Source of the DNA: a virus
Length of the DNA: 64,000 nucleotides
IMG/VR virus record: IMGVR_UViG_3300049324_000002
Location: 1 to 64,000 of that record
Reading direction: 5' to 3' (one strand)
Within the stretch, counting starts at the first letter, position 1. Each line of letters begins with the position of its first letter. The notes beneath the pieces were generated by a model. It searched no databases. It worked only from the letters and a program-made list of their open reading frames with translations, and had not been told where the DNA came from. Made by a program: the position numbers and the translations under genes. Below, in pieces: positions 23,149 to 63,404 of the stretch.

Positions 23149-23170
23149 GACACGTCCTACCGAGCGCATC

Positions 23171-23781
23171 GTCGGCATGAGATGACTTGCGGCGAGTAGT
23201 CGTATCGAACTGACCAGCAACGGGCTCGGCGGGAGTCGCATAGTCACACGTATCGACGTGATCTGAAAGCGGCAAGTCAGCTTGGGGATGGCTGGAAATG
23301 ATCGCGACAGGAGTAGTCGAACCGATCCGGTCAGAACAGGCGCGAAGCGTGGGGATTAGTCAATCGAGTCGAGTGGACTTGTCGCGAATTGGGTTGTCTG
23401 ACCGAGACGAGTAGATACGGGTAGATACGTCAGACGGAATGGCAGCGAAATGCGTAGTCGAACGGAAAAGATCGGAACTGTCTCGGGTAGTCACATGACA
23501 GGAACAGACACGATGCGATTCGTCGGTGTCGATTGGACAGGCCCTGGCTCGACGTGTCTGAAAGCACTGCAGGGCATCGACTCGAAAGGAGTAGTCGGAA
23601 AGGACTTGAACTGCCGAGGAGGGACACGGGTAGTCGGAAAGATGTGACAGGAATGGGCACGCGTAGTCGACTTGACAAGCAATGCCGCGAAACGAGTAGT
23701 CGAACGATCCGATTAGAAGTGCCTCTGAAAGGCCCGGCGTAGAGTAGTCGTACGACATGACGAGAAGAGAAATGGTTAGTC
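23171..23781 (-). repeat. Array 1: about 17 units of GAC + 5-9 pentamers ending in C; putative guide-RNA array
   Basis: 18 GAC anchors with consensus GACTACTC; spacings 28-48 nt clustering at 3+5n. Confidence 0.88.
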
Positions 23782-23785
23782 AGTA

Positions 23786-23818
23786 CCCAGACAACTGGGG
23801 TCAGCACACATCATACCC
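23786..23818 (-). promoter_or_regulatory. Putative promoter (GGGTATGAT) and 5' hairpin for array 1
   Basis: Genome-wide promoter motif at 23811-23818, then CCCAG-TTGT-CTGGG hairpin just before the first GAC. Confidence 0.6.
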
Positions 23819-23821
23819 CAC

Positions 23822-24574
23822 TCACCCGGCCAACGGCAGATCCAACACCGACCTCAAAGACTTACGCAAAATATCTTGCGCTTCCTCACGTAAAACCTGA
23901 ATCCACATACCAGACCAACGACTAGCCACCGGATCCCGCGAAATCTCAGGAATAGCCTGCGCAACCTTCGAATCAGAAAGCTGGTAATAACAAGACAACA
24001 CCAACACGCAACGATGCAACGGGGGCAACGCCCGCACCGCCGACACCACCTCAGCACACAACGCCGACCGTAACGCCGTCCCCTCCACATCAAGAGGAAC
24101 AACGATCTGCTCAGCTTCCTCATAATCATCCAACGGAACAGGCACTCTCAACAAAGCTGAAAGAGCCCTATTCACATCCTCAACACTAATGCCAGTCCTA
24201 GATGATATAGACTGCGGCGAATCATAATCCCACGAAACATACAAATCCACACCCTTTAAACCAATCTCCTTCACCAACGCACGCTCAGCACGCGTAGCCG
24301 GATCAGAAGACCGCAACTCATCAATAATCGCACCAATAATACGACGAGTGGCATAAGTACTAAACCAAGACAAAGCAGTAGGCGTATACATTTCATAATC
24401 ATGTTCTCTACAATAATCAGGCCACCTCACAGCGGCCAACACTAAACCATTCAACGCCCACGAAATAACTTCATCGCGCTCATACCCATTTAACTTGCAC
24501 CACTCTTTGTGTGCAAGTGCTGTCGCGAGCCCAACACGATCAATCACAAGCTGTTGTTGCTCGACAGACAGCAC
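23822..24574 (-). CDS. FliA/WhiG-family RNA polymerase sigma factor
   Basis: FSTYATRRIIGAIIDELRSSD..TR region 2.4 signature; GTG at 24574 after GAGGAG. Confidence 0.8.
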   Translation of the reverse strand: MLSVEQQQLVIDRVGLATALAHKEWCKLNGYERDEVISWALNGLVLAAVRWPDYCREHDYEMYTPTALSWFSTYATRRIIGAIIDELRSSDPATRAERALVKEIGLKGVDLYVSWDYDSPQSISSRTGISVEDVNRALSALLRVPVPLDDYEEAEQIVVPLDVEGTALRSALCAEVVSAVRALPPLHRCVLVLSCYYQLSDSKVAQAIPEISRDPVASRWSGMWIQVLREEAQDILRKSLRSVLDLPLAG

Positions 24575-27394: not shown

Positions 27395-29095
27395 TCACGC
27401 CGCGCTCAAAGCACCAACATCAGGACTAATAAACTGCAACATCTGAGCAGGCGACAGCTTCGCGTACATAGGATCATCCTCAGACCAAATCACACTAGCC
27501 AAAGCAGCCTCGACCTCCATCGCCCGAAGCTTCCTCTCCTCATGCGTATTAGACGCATAAAGACTATGCACATACACCGTCTTATAAGCACTACCAGCAC
27601 GACGAACCCGGCCCGCCAACTGAGTCATCCGAGCAGGATTAGGAATCTGATCCACATTCACCTGATGCCTAGCACACTGCAAATTCAGCGACTGCTCAAT
27701 AGCACACGTACCCACCAAAGCACGACACGTAGGATCATCCCAAAACCGCTCCGTCGCAGCACTCCGCCGCTTACGATCCCGATCCGCACCCCAATACCGC
27801 ACATGCCCAATCCCATTAGCATCCAACCGATTACACAATGCCTCTAACCCAGGACGATAATGAATGAACAAAACAGCTTTCTCATCCTCATCGCCCTCCT
27901 CCTCAGCCGCCCAGTCATTCAACAGCTTATCCACAATCCAATCAAACTTCACTGAAGCCCCAGGAGAATCACGGCCATCAATAACCGCTAAACTCTCACA
28001 AATCTGAGCCGCAGCCAGCCACTTAGCTTTAGCCTTCCCAAGCTCAAGCTCACCACCCTCCCCCAACACCTTCAACACACCACGCTGCAACTCGTCATAA
28101 CGAGCGCGCTGCTCGGGAAGCAAATCAAGAAACACATTATTGGGGATGATAAGTGGCATCTCAATGTCGTCAACATCCTTAGGAAGACGACGTAACACTC
28201 GAGGAGCAATCAACTCCTTAAACTCCCCAAGATGCTTATAACCCACCACCTCCATAACAGTACGAGTCTTCTTCTTACCAGTCTTCTGATCCCTACCAGT
28301 ATAAATAGTAGCTTTCTGCCTACGCAGATACCGGAGAATGAACGCGTCACGAGGACCGAACAACATCCGCGCCAGACCAATAGAATCCAAAAGATCGTAC
28401 AACTCCAAAAGCTTCTTCTGCAAAGGAGTCGCAGTCATCAACATCACCCGTGACGCCGACGTAGCCATACGCTTCACAGCCCACGACGTCTTATTATCAC
28501 AATTCCGTAGACAATCCACATCATCAATCACAAGATGATGAATCCCGAGACGCTCAATAATCTCAACATCCCGCAAAAACATCTGATGACCCACAACAGC
28601 TATATCCCACGGAAACGCATACAAATCAGAACGCTGATCCCGATCCCCATCAATCACCTCAGTAGTCAAACCAGGAATCGTACGACGCAACTCATTACGC
28701 CACTGCGTCAACGCAGCAGGCCGACACACCACCAACACCCGACCACCACCACGACGCGGATCCAACTCACCCGCCTGCGCAGCAAGAGCAATCGTCCCGC
28801 ACGCACTAAACGTCTTACCCAACCCAACAACATCCGCCAACAAACCCTTACGAATCAGAAAAAACCACGAAATAGCGACACGCTGATGTCGACGCAAAAT
28901 CACACCACAACGCCGACAAGAAACACACGGGACACCATCAGGAACATGCTTCTCACAAGGGTCGGAATTCCACAAATTCAAAACAGGTAGATTCACATCA
29001 TGTGCAGTACGCGCACGCTCCGCCGCTGCAGCTAAAGCCTGTGGATCCACACGATCCAGTGCCGATACCACAGAAAAACCTCCTCGAAAGGCCAC
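27395..29095 (-). CDS. SNF2-family helicase/ATPase
   Basis: LLADVVGLGKT, MTATPLQ, SLNLQ, QLAGRVRRAG. Confidence 0.85.
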   Translation of the reverse strand: MAFRGGFSVVSALDRVDPQALAAAAERARTAHDVNLPVLNLWNSDPCEKHVPDGVPCVSCRRCGVILRRHQRVAISWFFLIRKGLLADVVGLGKTFSACGTIALAAQAGELDPRRGGGRVLVVCRPAALTQWRNELRRTIPGLTTEVIDGDRDQRSDLYAFPWDIAVVGHQMFLRDVEIIERLGIHHLVIDDVDCLRNCDNKTSWAVKRMATSASRVMLMTATPLQKKLLELYDLLDSIGLARMLFGPRDAFILRYLRRQKATIYTGRDQKTGKKKTRTVMEVVGYKHLGEFKELIAPRVLRRLPKDVDDIEMPLIIPNNVFLDLLPEQRARYDELQRGVLKVLGEGGELELGKAKAKWLAAAQICESLAVIDGRDSPGASVKFDWIVDKLLNDWAAEEEGDEDEKAVLFIHYRPGLEALCNRLDANGIGHVRYWGADRDRKRRSAATERFWDDPTCRALVGTCAIEQSLNLQCARHQVNVDQIPNPARMTQLAGRVRRAGSAYKTVYVHSLYASNTHEERKLRAMEVEAALASVIWSEDDPMYAKLSPAQMLQFISPDVGALSAA

Positions 29096-35782: not shown

Positions 35783-38700
35783 TCACGAGAACATCCCCAT
35801 CAAAGACAAAGAACGCATACGAGCCGCCGCCGAGTCAGAAGCAGTCTCAGCAACCGGATTATAGATGTTCGTATTAATGACAACATCCCTAGATGAGTCA
35901 CTACTAGAAGCGCCATGCACCACCGTAGAAGATGACCCGGCCGACAACGCCGCATCCAACCCGGCCCGCACAGCACCCCCCAACGCAAACCGCTGCACCG
36001 ACGCACGCCCCACAGGCGAGAACAAGTCAGCAGCATGCACCCCACCTGACGCGTTCAACCTCGTCAACAAATCAAGGCCAAGTGCCTCCGACACACCCCT
36101 ACTCAAAACAAACTCACCCGGCGTCAACATCGCCGGAACCGAATCACCCCCACCCGGCCCAGAAGCAGTAACCACACCACCATCCGCGTAACCGTGACCC
36201 TTCCACCCCGCAGCCAACGAACCATACGCAGCCACAGTATACTTAATAGCAGAAGTAATATTAGCCATAGGATCAACCGACACACCATACGAATAAGGAC
36301 CCTTATCAAACCTAGCATCCTTGTAAGCCGCGTACGTGCCAGCGATAACCTGCATCAAACCAACAGAAGGATGACCAGCCTGCCAGTTCGAATCCCACTG
36401 ATTAACCACAGTAGGATTACCACCAGACTCAGTGCTCATCTGCATCAACAAGGCACCGATATTCTCAAGAGCCTGATTCTCAGCAGTCAGTGCCGCTAAC
36501 CCAGTGGCCCTCCACTGCTCAACGCCAGCCCCACCACCCTGCAACAACCCACTCGCACCAGCATTAGCCAACGCCGCTGCAGCGGCAGCCGCCCGCGCCG
36601 CATAATCCTTAGCCTTCTCAATAACCGCGTCAATAACTTTAGAAGGTATAGCCTTCATAACATCAGTGAAGCCACCTGACCCGGGCACACGCCCAGCATC
36701 ATCAGACACCCCACCAAACAACGTACGAACAGACCCAACAGGATCCGACACCATCGAAGCAATCGCGCCCGTAACATCACCAACGACACCACCACCAGCA
36801 AACCTATTCCCACCCGCTGGCTTAGCACGACCACCAGAATAAAACTCATTCGCCTTGTAAACAAAGTCAGGACCCAGTCCCCGAACAGCCTCAGGAACGA
36901 GTACTCCCTCTCCTGGCGAGAGGACCACTGGTACCGAGTCCCGACCCGGAGCATAGCCAGGGAGAACACCACCCTCAGCCAGCAACGCAGCAGGCGCTAG
37001 CTTCCCCAACCCGAACACACCAGCAAGACCATTCCACAACGGAACAATCCCACGATTGTAAACAACGTCAATCACAAAGTTAACAGGACCCTTAGCAATA
37101 TCACCTAACCTGTTCCAAGCACCCTCAATAGCACCAATAACATTCGTAAAAGTATCACCAAGAAGATGTACCACACCCATAAAGCCATTGAAGATAGGCA
37201 AGAGGATGTTATTGTAAATGCCTGTGAAAGCACCACCAATGAAATCTAGAGCAGGCTTAATAGCATTATTCCACAACCACAAAGCAGCGTTACCTGTATC
37301 CTGGAAAGCTCTGACCAAAGAATCAATCACAGGCTTAACAAGAGTATTCCACAAGAAACCAAACGCAGCCCCCATGAAATCAAGAGCAGGCTTAATAGCA
37401 TTAACCCACAACCACGTACCAGCATCACCTAGCTGCTGTAACCCCTCCAAAAACAAGTCAACAATAGGCTTGATAACATTAGTCCACACAGCAGTGAAGA
37501 AAGCACCAACAGCATCCAACGCACCAATAACAATATTACGGAACGTCTCAGAATGCGTCCAAGCATAAATAAACGCAGCAACCAAAGCTGCAATCGCAAG
37601 AACAACCAACCCGATAGGGTTAGCATCCATCGCAGCATTCAACAACCACTGCACCGCAGCCCACGCAGCAGTAGCACCCTTAACAATCGCAGACCCCGCA
37701 GCAAACAACAACTGCTTAGCATTAGCAGCTAAAGTCTCAACACCCAACTTAATGTAACTACCTGCAGCGCTAGCAACAGCACCCGCAACCTGCAAAGCAG
37801 ACCCAACAGCCTTACCTAACCCAGACGCTGCACTACCAGCCGCACTAGCAACAGCACCCGACAACGTAGAAGCAACACCAGACAACGCAGACTTAGCAGC
37901 CTCAGCAAGAGGCTTAATCTTCGCCAAACCAGCCGAAATGACTTCCGGTGCAAACGACCCAGCAATAGAACCTGCAATACCACCAACCGCTGCACCAGTA
38001 TCCCCACCCACCGCCTGGCCGATCGCTGCCCCGGCCAGACCACCACCAATAGACCCCGCGATCCCACCGGCCACCCGCCCCACAGCCACCGCGCCACGGC
38101 CCACAGAGCCCGCCACCGCGCTCAACCGCGACGGCGCAGCAGGTGCCGAGCGAGGAGTACCAGGAGGATAAAAAGGCGCAGCCCCAGCAGGAACAGCAGT
38201 CTGAACAGGCGACGCTGCAGGAGTCCCCGGCTTGAACACCGACATCGCCGCGCCGCCCACCGCAGCACCGGCACGCGCCGTAATCGTACGAGGAGTAGCA
38301 GTCTCACCCGCAACAGCCGACTTCACACCACCAACAAAACTCGTAGGAGACGCCTTAACCGGAGCAGCCTCACCAGCCAAATAAGAAGCAGACCGCCCAG
38401 CCAACGCGTTAATCCCACCAGCAACACTAGACAAACCAGTAATAGAACCTATCAGCTTGATTGCTTTCAACCCACCAGCAATCGCCAACAACCACACACC
38501 AAGCTCAGCAATATAAGGAACCGAAGTGATAGCCTGCAAAACAGAAGCAAAAATATTCAATATAGTAACGAAAGCTGACAAACCACCTCCGCCTCCAGCA
38601 TTAACCAAGTTAGTAAGAACATCAGCAAGCTTCGAAATAATCTCAATAAGCTGCTGACCAATAGAAAGTGAAACATCCTTCATTGCAGCAGCAAGACGCT

Positions 38701-60567: not shown

Positions 60568-61713
60568 TTAGTTACGAACCATGGCAGCCATCTCAGAAGC
60601 AGTCAACCCCCCTTTAGCCTTCACCTGACCAACCCCACCCGGGCACAACGCCTGCCCCAACAACGTCACCACCAAATCCAAAGCAGCATGTGCATCAGAA
60701 GATGGCTGTATCCTAGAATAATACTCCCACACCACACGCATCCCGGCCACACACCTAGCCGAGTCAAGGCGACTAGCCAACACCTTCTCGTCAGCAGACG
60801 GGGGAGGCGACAACGACGACCCAGACTCAGACATCGTCAACACCAGCAAACGCTTCAACGTCGACACCACCGAGCCCACCACCTCACGAGGCCCCGGGAG
60901 GACGCCCAGCGCCACGCCAGCCGCCTCAAACGCACCCACATAGTCCGGGCCAGCGACCAACGCCCGCACCACAGCCAACCCATGATCCTCAATACCTAGT
61001 AACTGTGTAAGCTGATCAGAAGTACGTACATGCACAAGAGCAGCCTGCTCAGCCATCATCACAGCATTACGAGCCACCCCGCGAGAACGCGTCGCGATAG
61101 CAGTGCAAAGTTCCGAGCTGAAACTAAATCCCTCAGCATCAGAGATGTCACGAATCCGCTGCGCCAACTCCGCCTCAGGAATCCTCGTAAACTCGCAACT
61201 AAAGCAACGAGAAACTACAGTATCCTTAACCTTATCAAGGTCAGTAGTAACCAACATAAAAACAACATTAGGAGGAGGCTCCTCCAAAACCTTCAACAAA
61301 GCATCAAACCCAGTATCAGAAAGAGCGTGCACCTCATCCAAAATAATAACACGATAACGACCCTGCGCCGCATAACGAGCCCGCTCACGCAACGCTCGCA
61401 TATCATCAGCCTTACCATGTGACGCAGCATCAATCTCCGTCACATCAGAAGACCGACCCTCAGCAGTCAACTCACAAGTAGAACAAACACCACACGGCCG
61501 CTCATTAACATCATCATGCTCACAATTCAAAGCAGCAGCGAGAACCCTAGCCATAGTAGTCTTACCAGACCCGAGTGAGCCATGAAAAAGATAGGCCCCT
61601 CGAACCTCATCTGCCTGTATCATGCGCTGTAACACAAGCCGCGCCAATCTCTGACCAACAACATCAGAAAATCGGCGCGGCCTGTATTTCAGGGCTAAAG
61701 CTTTCTGGCTCAT
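60568..61713 (-). CDS. dnaX: DNA polymerase III gamma/tau clamp-loader ATPase
   Basis: LKYRPRRFSDVVGQ, GSGKTT, CGVCSTC, EIDAAS, LDEVH, SRC. Confidence 0.93.
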   Translation of the reverse strand: MSQKALALKYRPRRFSDVVGQRLARLVLQRMIQADEVRGAYLFHGSLGSGKTTMARVLAAALNCEHDDVNERPCGVCSTCELTAEGRSSDVTEIDAASHGKADDMRALRERARYAAQGRYRVIILDEVHALSDTGFDALLKVLEEPPPNVVFMLVTTDLDKVKDTVVSRCFSCEFTRIPEAELAQRIRDISDAEGFSFSSELCTAIATRSRGVARNAVMMAEQAALVHVRTSDQLTQLLGIEDHGLAVVRALVAGPDYVGAFEAAGVALGVLPGPREVVGSVVSTLKRLLVLTMSESGSSLSPPPSADEKVLASRLDSARCVAGMRVVWEYYSRIQPSSDAHAALDLVVTLLGQALCPGGVGQVKAKGGLTASEMAAMVRN

Positions 61714-61736: not shown

Positions 61737-62507
61737 CTATTCCTCCGAATCCCCAGGCTTAGCCTTCTTAGCACCAGCCTTAGGGGTGGTCGTCTTCGGA
61801 GGCTTCGTCAACAGATCCCATTGCGTGACCTTGTACCGGCCAAACCCACCAGACCGAGAAGCGCCAACACCCTGCTCCTGACCAGTCAGCCACACAATCT
61901 CCCAGAAACCATCACAAGCCGCATCAAAATCGAAGTCAGTAATAACCTGAAACTTCAATACAGCAGGAGTCACATGCTCCTTATAATGCGGGGCAGAACC
62001 ATACTGAGTATGCACGAACTGCTGCACAATACCAGAAGCAGTAAGCACGTTCTTGCCATCATCAGGATTAAAGATATGAACCTTATCATCCGTCACCATA
62101 ATATGCTCAGCAACGAACCCCTTAGCAAACTTACTCGTCACACCCCACGAGCGAAGCGGCACGTTCCCGGCCGCGACGGCGACCATCACAGCCTCTTTCA
62201 GCGCAGCCTTCACCTGACGACCATCAATGTACAGGCCCTCAGTATCTTTCTTAAACCCAGTGAAGTGCTTAGCCGAACCAACCAGCTTCACAGCCTCCTC
62301 AGCAGACACCGCGCGCTCAGCCATCGTCTCAGCAACAGCCCGACGAACAGCATCGTCTTTATCCTCAATCTTGGTACGCAACCAAGACTCCGCGACCTTC
62401 TCATCAGTAGGAATACCACCAGCAATCGAATCCACCTGAATCGTGGCCGCGTAACGCCACTTCCAAACCCTATCCTGTGCTGAAGCGAAAACAGAAGTAG
62501 CCGACAT
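61737..62507 (-). CDS. Stand-alone Cas7/RAMP-superfamily protein
   Basis: LYIDGRQVKAALKEA (cf. RAMP YIPGSSLKGALR) and C-terminal G-rich loop GVGASRSGGFGRY. Confidence 0.8.
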   Translation of the reverse strand: MSATSVFASAQDRVWKWRYAATIQVDSIAGGIPTDEKVAESWLRTKIEDKDDAVRRAVAETMAERAVSAEEAVKLVGSAKHFTGFKKDTEGLYIDGRQVKAALKEAVMVAVAAGNVPLRSWGVTSKFAKGFVAEHIMVTDDKVHIFNPDDGKNVLTASGIVQQFVHTQYGSAPHYKEHVTPAVLKFQVITDFDFDAACDGFWEIVWLTGQEQGVGASRSGGFGRYKVTQWDLLTKPPKTTTPKAGAKKAKPGDSEE

Positions 62508-62597
62508 CAGATATGCTCCTTGTTATTTGTTGTCGAATCAACCCCGGACAAGCCGAGGCACAGCACCGTCACCATTGACGACAAACCCCTTATACCG

Positions 62598-62846
62598 AGA
62601 GATCGATATGAGTTGAATGAACAGACAAGTCGAGATGAATTGAAACGACTCGGCTAGAAAAGTCGGCGTTGAATAGTATCGAGTTGACGGGTGAAGTCGG
62701 TAGGGAGGCGACCCGATCAGGAGCGACATGAGTGGTCGATGCGAAGGGAAGCGAATAGAGAAGTCGGTGATGTATAGACTAGCAGCGAAATGACTTGGCT
62801 TGTCGAATCGACTTGATCTGATATGAACCGTCTTGAGAAGTCGAAA
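62598..62846 (-). repeat. Array 2: seven GAC-anchored pentamer-periodic units upstream of the RAMP gene
   Basis: Anchors at 62629, 62662, 62696, 62735, 62763, 62802, 62840; e.g. GAC TTCTC AAGAC GGTTC ATATC AGATC AAGTC GATTC. Confidence 0.88.
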
Positions 62847-63404
62847 CTAAGAAGCAACAATAGAAGTACGGCCCTGAATCGAACTGTACATTCTATCAAT
62901 ATCCTCTTCAGAGAAGACAGCACCCACCGTCTGCTGGCCAACCCGGGACGCCAGCGCGAGCAAGAACGCCTCCTCCAACAAAGCAGTATGAGCTGAACGT
63001 GAATACCTAGCAGCCGCGAAATTCAAATCATCACGATTCATGTCAAGCAAACGACGCTGAGTATTCTCACCATCAACAGCGTAACGTACGGTCTTCCAAT
63101 GACTAATCGCACTGGAATCCCCGCCCGTAAACTTGCGAGCATCTGCCGCAAACGCAGACCGTGCCGCATTCGACCGAGCCCGCGCTCGAGCGGAGGCAAG
63201 CCGATGCTTAATCTGCTCAGCCAAGAACGTACTAGAATGCTCCAACAGCCAACCAGTAAGCAACTCAGGATCAGTTTTCTTCAACCTACTGACAAGTGTC
63301 CACGAAGCAACAGAAGGAATCAAATCCGACTCAGCATCTAAAAGAATATCGGTAATCATTTTAGACATCTCAGCAGAGTAATTCCTGCCTGGATCTTCAT
63401 CCAC
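62847..63404 (-). CDS. Hypothetical protein directly upstream of array 2
   Basis: 185-aa ORF whose stop codon lies 4 nt before the first GAC. Confidence 0.7.
   Translation of the reverse strand: MDEDPGRNYSAEMSKMITDILLDAESDLIPSVASWTLVSRLKKTDPELLTGWLLEHSSTFLAEQIKHRLASARARARSNAARSAFAADARKFTGGDSSAISHWKTVRYAVDGENTQRRLLDMNRDDLNFAAARYSRSAHTALLEEAFLLALASRVGQQTVGAVFSEEDIDRMYSSIQGRTSIVAS

What the first reader, a model, noticed from the sequence alone, without database searches (positions are those of the whole stretch)
61737..63404. Candidate phage RNA-guided system: solo Cas7/RAMP protein plus non-CRISPR arrays with a 5-nt periodic code
Seen: a 256-aa protein with RAMP hallmarks (YIDGRQVKAALKE; G-loop GVGASRSGGFGRY) and no cas1, cas3, cas5, cas6, cas8 or cas10 or CRISPR array in the window. 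Directly upstream is an array whose units are GAC plus a run of pentamers ending in C, mostly NNNTC. The same grammar recurs about 39 kb away. Known: Cas7-family proteins polymerise along guide RNA with a fixed nucleotide step (6 nt in Cascade/Csm). Inference: each unit is a guide RNA with an 8-nt GACUWCUC handle, one RAMP subunit binds each pentamer, and the 2-3 variable bases per pentamer jointly specify a gapped target. No nuclease is evident, so the action may be transcriptional silencing of rival phages or host genes. From memory, this resembles the recently reported phage VIPR systems (RAMP plus GGY/NN pentamer RNAs). The fixed motif and the GAC-punctuated units here differ, so it may be a new variant; this comparison needs checking.
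Basis: partly seen in the sequence, partly recalled or inferred. Interest (0 to 1): 0.96.

Follow-up and report, generated by a model that had tools for sequence, protein, structure and literature searches.

The report
Phage VIPR system with GA-NNN guides
This 146-kb uncultured phage carries a VIPR system, a CRISPR-related RNA-guided DNA silencer first described in 2026. It has one Cas7-like protein, a conserved partner gene and about 134 short guide units written in five-base steps, so it is a real and large example of a published kind, with an unusual guide format.

Summary
The 256-aa protein (61737-62507, minus strand) has a Cas7/Csm3-type RAMP fold. Profile comparison links it weakly but collinearly, including the G-loop, to the SUSP1 Vipr family. 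The genome has no Cas1, Cas5 or CRISPR array.

The intergenic tract 62555-62846 and a second tract at 23150-23800 are strongly 5-nt periodic. A third, 4-kb tract lies outside the window. Read on the plus strand, units are runs of 4-9 pentamers G-A-(A/C)-N-N closed by GTC, with lengths stepping by 5.

In 68 of 71 related viral loci, and in all 10 other loci fetched, such arrays lie within 4 kb of the gene. The second pentamer base covaries with G-loop residues. A conserved ~180-aa helical partner gene (62847-63404) accompanies the gene.

This is a VIPR-family system (bioRxiv 10.64898/2026.04.26.720920). Alternative repeats, staggered arrays, orphan guides and a GAC/NN motif are already in print. 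It is a new member of a known kind, and this scan has met VIPR-like loci in many other genomes.

Three things stay open. The first is which strand is the guide. The second is whether three bases per unit are read rather than two; stop-codon depletion hints at this. The third is the targets, none of which was found.

The parts
61737..62507 (-). vipr-like gene: 256-aa single-RRM RAMP (Cas7-like) with the G-loop GVGASRSGGFGRY
62508..62554 (-). leader between array 1 and the vipr start: conserved TTCGACAA box, ribosome-binding site and the start of a covarying hairpin region that runs to about 62590
   Evidence: Alignment with L013, L002, L004 and L005. Folds.
62555..62846 (.). array 1: about 7 guide units. 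Plus strand: (G-A-M-N-N)n then GTC. Gene strand: GAC then (N-N-K-T-C)n. It starts 4 nt after the partner gene's stop codon.
62847..63404 (-). conserved partner gene (candidate vap): 185-aa helical protein with no known family or fold
   Evidence: Homologues lie beside vipr in L002, L004, L008, L006, L007 and L009, and weakly in L001. No Pfam or PHROG hit. Model pLDDT 75, with no fold match.
23150..23800 (.). array 2, an orphan array 39 kb from vipr: about 17-20 units with the same grammar and the delimiter GTAGTC on the plus strand
23785..23835 (-). element shared with array 3 on the gene-strand 5' side of the array: a TATGAT box followed by the hairpin CCCAG-N4-CTGGG
   Evidence: The array 3 copy scores as a promoter-like site, TTGAGT-18-TATGAT, on the minus strand.

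Best explanation
This is a VIPR-family (Viral Interference Programmable Repeat) RNA-guided system of an uncultured 146-kb phage.

The three arrays would be transcribed and cut into short guide RNAs of 28-48 nt. Copies of the Vipr-like RAMP would line up along each guide, one protomer per pentamer. Each protomer would hold the constant first two bases (G-A on the plus strand, U-C on the gene strand) through its G-loop and thumb, and would present the variable bases. The filament would then bind matching double-stranded DNA of rival mobile elements or of the host and block transcription. No nuclease is present. The conserved ~180-aa partner would act as the accessory (vap-like) factor.

What is shown: the fold, the array grammar, the gene-array linkage across the family, and the covariation between G-loop and pentamer. 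What is inferred from the published SUSP1 work: RNA expression, filament assembly, DNA binding and silencing.

The guide strand is not settled. My odds are about 60:40 for the gene (minus) strand, co-transcribed with its neighbours, over the plus (G-rich) strand.

For: Link to true Vipr. hhalign of family alignment A1 against the SUSP1 Vipr family A2 gives E 2.9e-4 over 165 collinear columns, including helix 1 and the G-loop. A2 matches PDB 36pp, 'SUSP1 Vipr protein', at 2e-82.

Not CRISPR. No Cas1, Cas5d or Pfam RAMP hit in the genome.

Arrays. The periodicity is far above background. Unit lengths are quantised at 5n+3. The logo is G 84%, A 64%, A/C 70%, then two variable positions.

Linkage. 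All loci fetched through homologues carry the array beside the gene, as do 68 of 71 IMG/VR loci.

Direct readout. Pentamer base 2 follows the G-loop. SRSQG..GR goes with G. SRS[G/A]G goes with A. ..GT[Y/F] goes with A. A distant clade has T.

Conservation between near-identical phages. Against L013, the array has 0 changes in GTC, 1 at base 1, and 8 at base 3.

Strand, for the gene strand. 93 of 109 arrays have C on the vipr strand. The arrays fill the gaps between co-oriented genes and abut the next ribosome-binding site. A TTGAGT-18-TATGAT site and a co-oriented tRNA lie just upstream of array 3. The terminator layout in L068 also fits.
Against: Sequence similarity to characterised Vipr is weak. 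hhalign probability is 41%. The A2 profile against this family gives E 1.3 at best at NR scale. The A1 profile does not reach PDB 36pp.

The constant motif is G-A, not GGY. There is no structured 3' tail, only GTC punctuation. Units hold 4-9 repeats against the published 9-16.

No RNA data exist for this family. No target was found under any skip rule.

Against the gene strand as guide: every vrRNA motif described in the VIPR papers keeps a conserved G. The 5'-to-3' order of conservation on the plus strand (G > A > A/C, then N, N) mirrors GGY/NN. In L079, a hairpin with a U-rich tail sits at the 3' end of the G strand. L061 shows that one array must be antisense to its neighbours under either model.
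Confidence: 0.85

Rival explanations
1. The same VIPR-type system, but the guide is the plus (G-rich) strand. It would be transcribed antisense to the surrounding genes from its own promoters. Pentamers would be G-A-M/N-N, GTC would be a minimal 3' tail, and the published two-base, one-skip code would apply.
For: All vrRNA motifs described in the VIPR papers carry a conserved G. On the plus strand the order of conservation within the pentamer mirrors GGY/NN. The pentamer phase is locked to the GTC on the 3' side, like repeats followed by a tail. L079 has a GC hairpin plus a U-rich tail at the 3' end of the G strand. Strong hairpins are somewhat commoner on the flank that would be the G strand's 3' end: 44 against 25. 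L061 and L063 show that arrays can be inverted relative to vipr.
Against: In the prophage loci and at arrays 2 and 3 there is no room for a promoter between the array and the next gene's ribosome-binding site. No conserved plus-strand promoter is found. A 4-kb antisense transcript inside a one-strand gene cluster would collide with read-through transcription. In L068 the array lies directly downstream of a strong plus-strand terminator.
Confidence: 0.35
2. The arrays are DNA-level elements rather than guide RNAs, for example phased protein-binding or architectural repeats. The RAMP-like protein would have another role.
For: No RNA data exist. No targets were found. The arrays take up 3.4% of the genome.
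Against: RAMPs are RNA-binding proteins. The array is tied to this one gene in nearly all of about 80 loci. The G-loop covaries with a pentamer base. The only homologous family with experiments uses such repeats as RNA. A 5-bp period places sites on alternating faces of the DNA helix.
Confidence: 0.04
3. A decayed or minimal CRISPR-Cas remnant, for example a type III or IV Cas7 left in a phage, next to unrelated low-complexity DNA.
For: The best structural matches are Csm3, type VII Cas7 and type IV Csf2.
Against: The genome has no Cas1, no Cas5d and no CRISPR repeats. The Pfam RAMP model does not hit the protein. The family has 840 sequence clusters and a constant solo context with pentamer arrays.
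Confidence: 0.02

Closest known systems
Type II VIPR of Escherichia phage SUSP1 and the Pseudomonas fulva prophage (Vipr + vap1 + vrRNAs; bioRxiv 10.64898/2026.04.26.720920 and .720927; PDB 36pp)
   Same: A phage-borne solo single-RRM RAMP with a G-loop and no cas genes. 5-nt tandem-repeat arrays beside the gene. A small accessory gene. No nuclease. Guides both next to the gene and elsewhere in the genome.
   Different: The protein is 256 aa against 195 aa, with a helical insert, and only profile-level similarity (E 2.9e-4). The G-loop is GASRSGGFGRY against GDWRPRFGRF. The constant motif is G-A with three free bases against GGY with two. Units have 4-9 repeats closed by GTC against 9-16 repeats plus a structured tail of about 40 nt. 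In SUSP1 the G strand is the gene strand; here it is the opposite strand. The accessory protein shows no detectable relation to anything known.
VIPR types with alternative repeats (NNNGG, YNNNG, NNNNG) and 'staggered' vrRNA arrays (same preprint, Methods and the Fig. S17-S18 legends)
   Same: Only one or two constant bases per pentamer. Back-to-back guides without spacers, where the end of one guide marks the start of the next. The prophage relatives of this gene use NNNGG.
   Different: The figures and tables are not held in the library. I could not check whether this protein clade, the GTC punctuation or the GA motif is among the seven published types.
Non-canonical VIPR-like clusters found with a genomic language model (GAC/NN, CAC/NN, WGT/NN, TGH/NN; bioRxiv 10.64898/2026.10.21.760802)
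   Same: 5-nt periodic arrays with a constant trinucleotide other than GGY, next to a Vipr-like fold. GAC/NN fits the plus-strand consensus G-A-(A/C)-N-N here.
   Different: Those arrays are described as about 10 repeats. Nothing is said of GTC-punctuated short units or multi-kb arrays. Identity with this clade could not be checked.
Class 1 CRISPR Cas7 backbone (Csm3 of type III-A, e.g. PDB 6xn3 chain F)
   Different: The step is 6 nt and the spacers are contiguous. Cas5, Cas6, Cas10 or Cas8 and Cas1-Cas2 are needed, with repeat-spacer arrays. None of these is present here.

Membership tests
VIPR system | Sequence homology to characterised Vipr proteins (SUSP1 / X1U2U4 lineage) | tested here: inconclusive
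   hhalign A1 against A2: E 2.9e-4, probability 41%, 165 collinear columns. HMM searches either way are not significant at database scale. Superposition on PDB 36pp was not possible because the fold library ends on 2026-04-08.
VIPR system | No CRISPR array and no other cas genes at the locus; viral or proviral context | tested here: met
   No Cas1, Cas5d or Pfam RAMP hit in the 146-kb virus record. No CRISPR-like repeats. The neighbours are a clamp loader, lysin, portal and MuF. The relatives are phages and prophages.
VIPR system | Tandem 5-nt repeats with constant and hypervariable positions in the intergenic DNA beside vipr | tested here: met
   Present in 68 of 71 IMG/VR loci and in all 10 other loci.
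VIPR system | Canonical GGY/NN repeat | tested here: not met
   The consensus here is G(84%)-A(64%)-A/C(70%)-N-N. The paper admits 'a related consensus' (NNNGG, YNNNG, NNNNG). This therefore excludes type II but not the VIPR family.
VIPR system | Invariable structured 3' tail after the repeat tract (SUSP1 clade) | tested here: not met
   Units are separated only by GTC plus 0-2 nt. No Rfam family or ribozyme is present. This resembles the published 'staggered' arrays.
VIPR system | Accessory vap gene next to vipr | tested here: inconclusive
   A conserved ~180-aa partner is present in 8 loci. It has no family or fold match. Relation to vap1-6 cannot be tested because their sequences are not at hand.
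VIPR system | vrRNAs are expressed, co-purify with Vipr and guide binding to dsDNA by the 1-nt skip rule | not testable with these tools
   No RNA or binding data. In-silico target searches under 0-3 skip rules gave no signal above shuffled guides.
Class 1 CRISPR-Cas | Repeat-spacer array plus an adaptation module (Cas1-Cas2) and a multi-subunit effector (Cas5, Cas6, large subunit) | tested here: not met
   There is one RAMP gene only.

The most novel reading that the evidence does not exclude
In this large Vipr clade each protomer may hide only two bases and present three. A guide would then spell whole codons of its target with no skipped base: five RNA bases for three DNA bases. The guide would be the pyrimidine-type (N-N-K-U-C) RNA of the gene strand, cut at GAC like a crRNA 5' handle.

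The hints are these. Base 3 is as free as bases 4-5 and tracks genomic wobble composition. Stop codons are depleted in gene-strand triplets, 54 observed against 85.6 expected, but not in plus-strand triplets, 61 against 66.8. The depletion repeats weakly in held-out loci, 46 against 63.
Probability: 0.25. Interest if true: 0.7.

Novelty: new member of a known kind. Interest (0 to 1): 0.45.

Why it matters
VIPR was described only in 2026 and is proposed as the viral ancestor of CRISPR effectors. This locus adds a large, mostly actinobacterial and phage clade of Vipr-like proteins: 840 clusters at 50% identity. It also shows how large an arsenal such a system can carry, with one protein serving about 134 guides in three arrays that take up about 5 kb of a 146-kb phage.

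The clade gives a natural experiment on how the constant bases are read, because G-loop changes track changes in pentamer base 2. It also gives a clean test of whether the noncontiguous code can read three bases per unit, and of which strand is used. For tool building, very short guides with a 3-nt boundary would be a compact multiplex format. None of this is a new principle.

Tried and rejected
Periodicity. A plain Fourier scan at period 5 over 150-nt windows did not single out the arrays, because the phase jumps at each GTC. Pair-distance counts did.

Sequence annotation. Pfam, PHROGs and PDB sequence searches name neither the RAMP nor the partner. tblastn against the phage records found only Microcystis phage Mae-JY09.

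Partner protein. The ESM Atlas, Foldseek and VIA-align gave only long-helix look-alikes.

Targets.
- Eight rules, with 2 or 3 bases read and 0-3 skipped, were run against the phage's own genome and related loci. Results equalled shuffled guides.
- Four rules with 198 long units from all loci against 1.6 Mb gave no clear excess.
- Guide triplets read as peptides against six-frame translations gave no excess.
- Three exact gapped or contiguous patterns with 21 specified bases, scanned in IMG/VR, gave 0 hits.
- A listing script returned nothing.
- Under the published two-base rule, units of 4-7 repeats specify too few bases for an exact-match scan to carry statistical power.

Strand.
- Generic promoter and terminator scans were mostly uninformative.
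- The minus strand folds better everywhere, but that follows from its G/T richness.
- Hairpin positions around 102 arrays gave a weak and ambiguous bias.
- The leader motif of arrays 2 and 3 was not found in other viral contigs.

Stop-codon depletion. It looked strong in 12 loci, 9 observed against 31.6 expected. It shrank once all loci were used and boundary pentamers were removed. AT-rich triplets in general are also depleted, so I treat it as a hint only.

Rfam. No known RNA family occurs in the arrays.

Full report
**What is there**

All genes in this part of the window lie on the minus strand. It follows a 339-nt intergenic tract, which in turn follows a 185-aa ORF at 62847-63404. A clamp-loader gene lies downstream. 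Neither small protein matches any Pfam or PHROG family.

**The periodicity is real**

On the plus strand of 62560-62850, GA dinucleotides recur at distances 5, 10 and 15 (19, 16 and 12 pairs). Other distances give 0-7 pairs. The window-wide mean for distance 5 is 0.77 per 200 nt, and the 25 best windows all fall in this tract or in 23281-23621. The second array spans about 23150-23800.

The window is the first 64 kb of a 146,490-bp IMG/VR virus record rated 95% complete. That genome holds a third array of about 4 kb at 81100-85140. It has one vipr-like gene only.

**Grammar of the arrays**

Read on the plus strand, a unit is a run of pentamers closed by GTC. The pentamer consensus is G (84%), A (64%), A or C (70%), then two near-random bases.

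- The pentamer phase is locked to the GTC that follows. The 0-2 nt after a GTC vary.
- This gives unit lengths of 28, 33, 38, 43 and 48 nt, with some off by one.
- About 134 units are present in the genome.

Against a near-identical phage (L013), array 1 has no change in GTC, one at base 1, five at base 2 (mostly A/G), eight at base 3, four at base 4 and one at base 5.

**The protein**

An AlphaFold2 model built from 41 homologues has pLDDT 83.

- Foldseek gives 111 solved chains at E <= 1e-3. The top hits are all Csm3, type VII Cas7 or Cmr subunits.
- Viral predicted structures annotated as RAMPs are the best BFVD hits.

I located the SUSP1 VIPR locus in KT454805.2 from its YNNGG arrays: vipr at 28474-29061 and vap1 at 28031-28471. 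I then built a profile of that family, whose PDB match is 36pp, 'SUSP1 Vipr protein'. Profile-profile comparison with the present family gives E 2.9e-4 over 165 collinear columns, aligning helix 1 and the G-loop. Plain HMM searches do not bridge the two families. The relation is therefore remote. The present family is large: 840 clusters at 50% identity.

**Linkage of gene and array**

- Every locus fetched through homologues has its only strong 5-nt-periodic stretch beside the gene. These include close phages, Nocardiopsis and Streptomyces prophages, and a Microcystis phage at 29% identity.
- Of 71 further viral loci, 68 have such arrays within 4 kb.
- Pentamer base 2 follows the G-loop sequence. 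SRSQG..GR goes with G. SRS[G/A]G, the window's clade, goes with A. A clade with ..GT[Y/F] goes with A. A distant clade has T. These are a few independent switches, so the point is suggestive. It is what direct readout by the G-loop, as seen in SUSP1, would predict.
- The 185-aa ORF is conserved next to vipr in eight loci, sometimes in a different order. Its model is helical and matches no known fold.
- Cas1, Cas5d and Pfam RAMP searches of the whole genome are empty.

**What it is**

These features fit the VIPR systems described in 2026: a phage-borne ancestral RAMP, an accessory gene and guide RNAs built of 5-nt repeats. In those systems the Vipr filament holds the constant bases, and the variable bases pair with double-stranded DNA to silence transcription.

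The canonical GGY/NN motif and the structured tail are absent here. The literature, however, already covers the variations seen:
- repeats NNNGG, YNNNG and NNNNG, and 'staggered' arrays in which one guide ends where the next begins;
- orphan vrRNAs away from vipr;
- Vipr-linked arrays with other constant triplets, including GAC/NN.

I could not read the figures or tables, so I cannot say whether this exact clade is in the published set. Notes from this scan show VIPR-like loci in many other genomes, including GA-NNN formats and multi-array jumbo phages.

**Which strand is the guide?**

For the gene strand:
- 93 of 109 arrays have C on the vipr strand.
- The arrays fill the space between co-oriented genes and run up to the next ribosome-binding site, which leaves no room for an antisense promoter.
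- Arrays 2 and 3 share a TATGAT box plus hairpin on the minus strand. At array 3 the box forms a TTGAGT-18-TATGAT site just after a minus-strand tRNA.
- In L068 the array lies beyond a strong terminator on the G strand, but inside the 3' region of a convergent gene on the C strand.

For the plus (G) strand:
- Every vrRNA motif described in the VIPR papers keeps a conserved G.
- The order of conservation within the pentamer mirrors GGY/NN.
- The phase lock to a 3' GTC mirrors repeats followed by a tail.
- L079 has a hairpin with a U-rich tail at the 3' end of the G strand.

Loci such as L061 and L063 carry arrays in both orientations around vipr. One array must therefore be antisense to its neighbours under either model. 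I put the odds at about 60:40 for the gene strand.

**The code and the targets**

No target was found.
- All skip rules scored like shuffled guides against the phage's own genome and against about 1.6 Mb of related loci.
- Peptide readings did the same.
- Three exact scans of IMG/VR gave nothing.

Under the published two-base rule, units of 4-7 repeats would specify only 8-14 bases. That seems too few for unique recognition.

Base 3 is as variable as bases 4-5, and its composition follows the wobble composition of the genome concerned. Gene-strand triplets avoid stop codons, 54 observed against 85.6 expected (p 2e-4). Plus-strand triplets do not, 61 against 66.8. The effect repeats weakly in 40 held-out loci, 46 against 63 (p 0.015). 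I removed boundary pentamers, and I treat the result as a hint that three bases per unit mirror sense codons.

**Verdict**

The system is a new member of a published kind with an unusual guide format. The guide strand, a possible three-base code and the targets remain open and directly testable.

Noticed in passing
G000 81100-85140 (outside the window; L086:400-4440): A third array of about 4 kb and about 100 guide units, far larger than the two in the window. On the minus strand it is preceded by a tRNA gene (G000 85199-85270) and a TTGAGT-18-TATGAT promoter-like site. It runs up to the ribosome-binding site of the next gene.
   Followed up: partly
whole genome (window 1-64000 and beyond): Extreme strand asymmetry. 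The plus strand is A 32%, C 30%, G 19%, T 18%. Long ORFs lie mostly on the minus strand: 38,801 against 16,543 residues in ORFs of at least 100 aa. The arrays invert this skew.
   Followed up: no
L002:15562-15771, L004:9195-9407 (relatives of the window's phage): Close relatives encode a 69-70-aa protein with the Acb2/Tad1 hairpin domain (PF24729), a family of anti-CBASS and anti-Thoeris signal sponges, a few genes downstream of the amidase. I did not check for the window's own copy.
   Followed up: no
window 37239-37488: A 135-nt tandem repeat, 1.9 copies, 74% matches.
   Followed up: no
window 60568-61713: The clamp-loader gene next to vipr has its best full-length match among deposited phages in Microbacterium phage Magritte, at 33% identity. 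No deposited phage is close at the DNA level, so the phage has no cultured near relative.
   Followed up: no
L061, L063 (IMG/VR relatives): Here the order is array, vipr, partner gene, array, and the two arrays are in opposite orientation. In L068 both arrays have G on the vipr strand. Array orientation is therefore not fixed within the family.
   Followed up: partly
window 23785-23835 and G000 85095-85175: The shared element before arrays 2 and 3 can form two mutually exclusive hairpins, GGGGT..ACCCC and CCCAG..CTGGG, around the TATGAT box. This looks like a possible switch.
   Followed up: no
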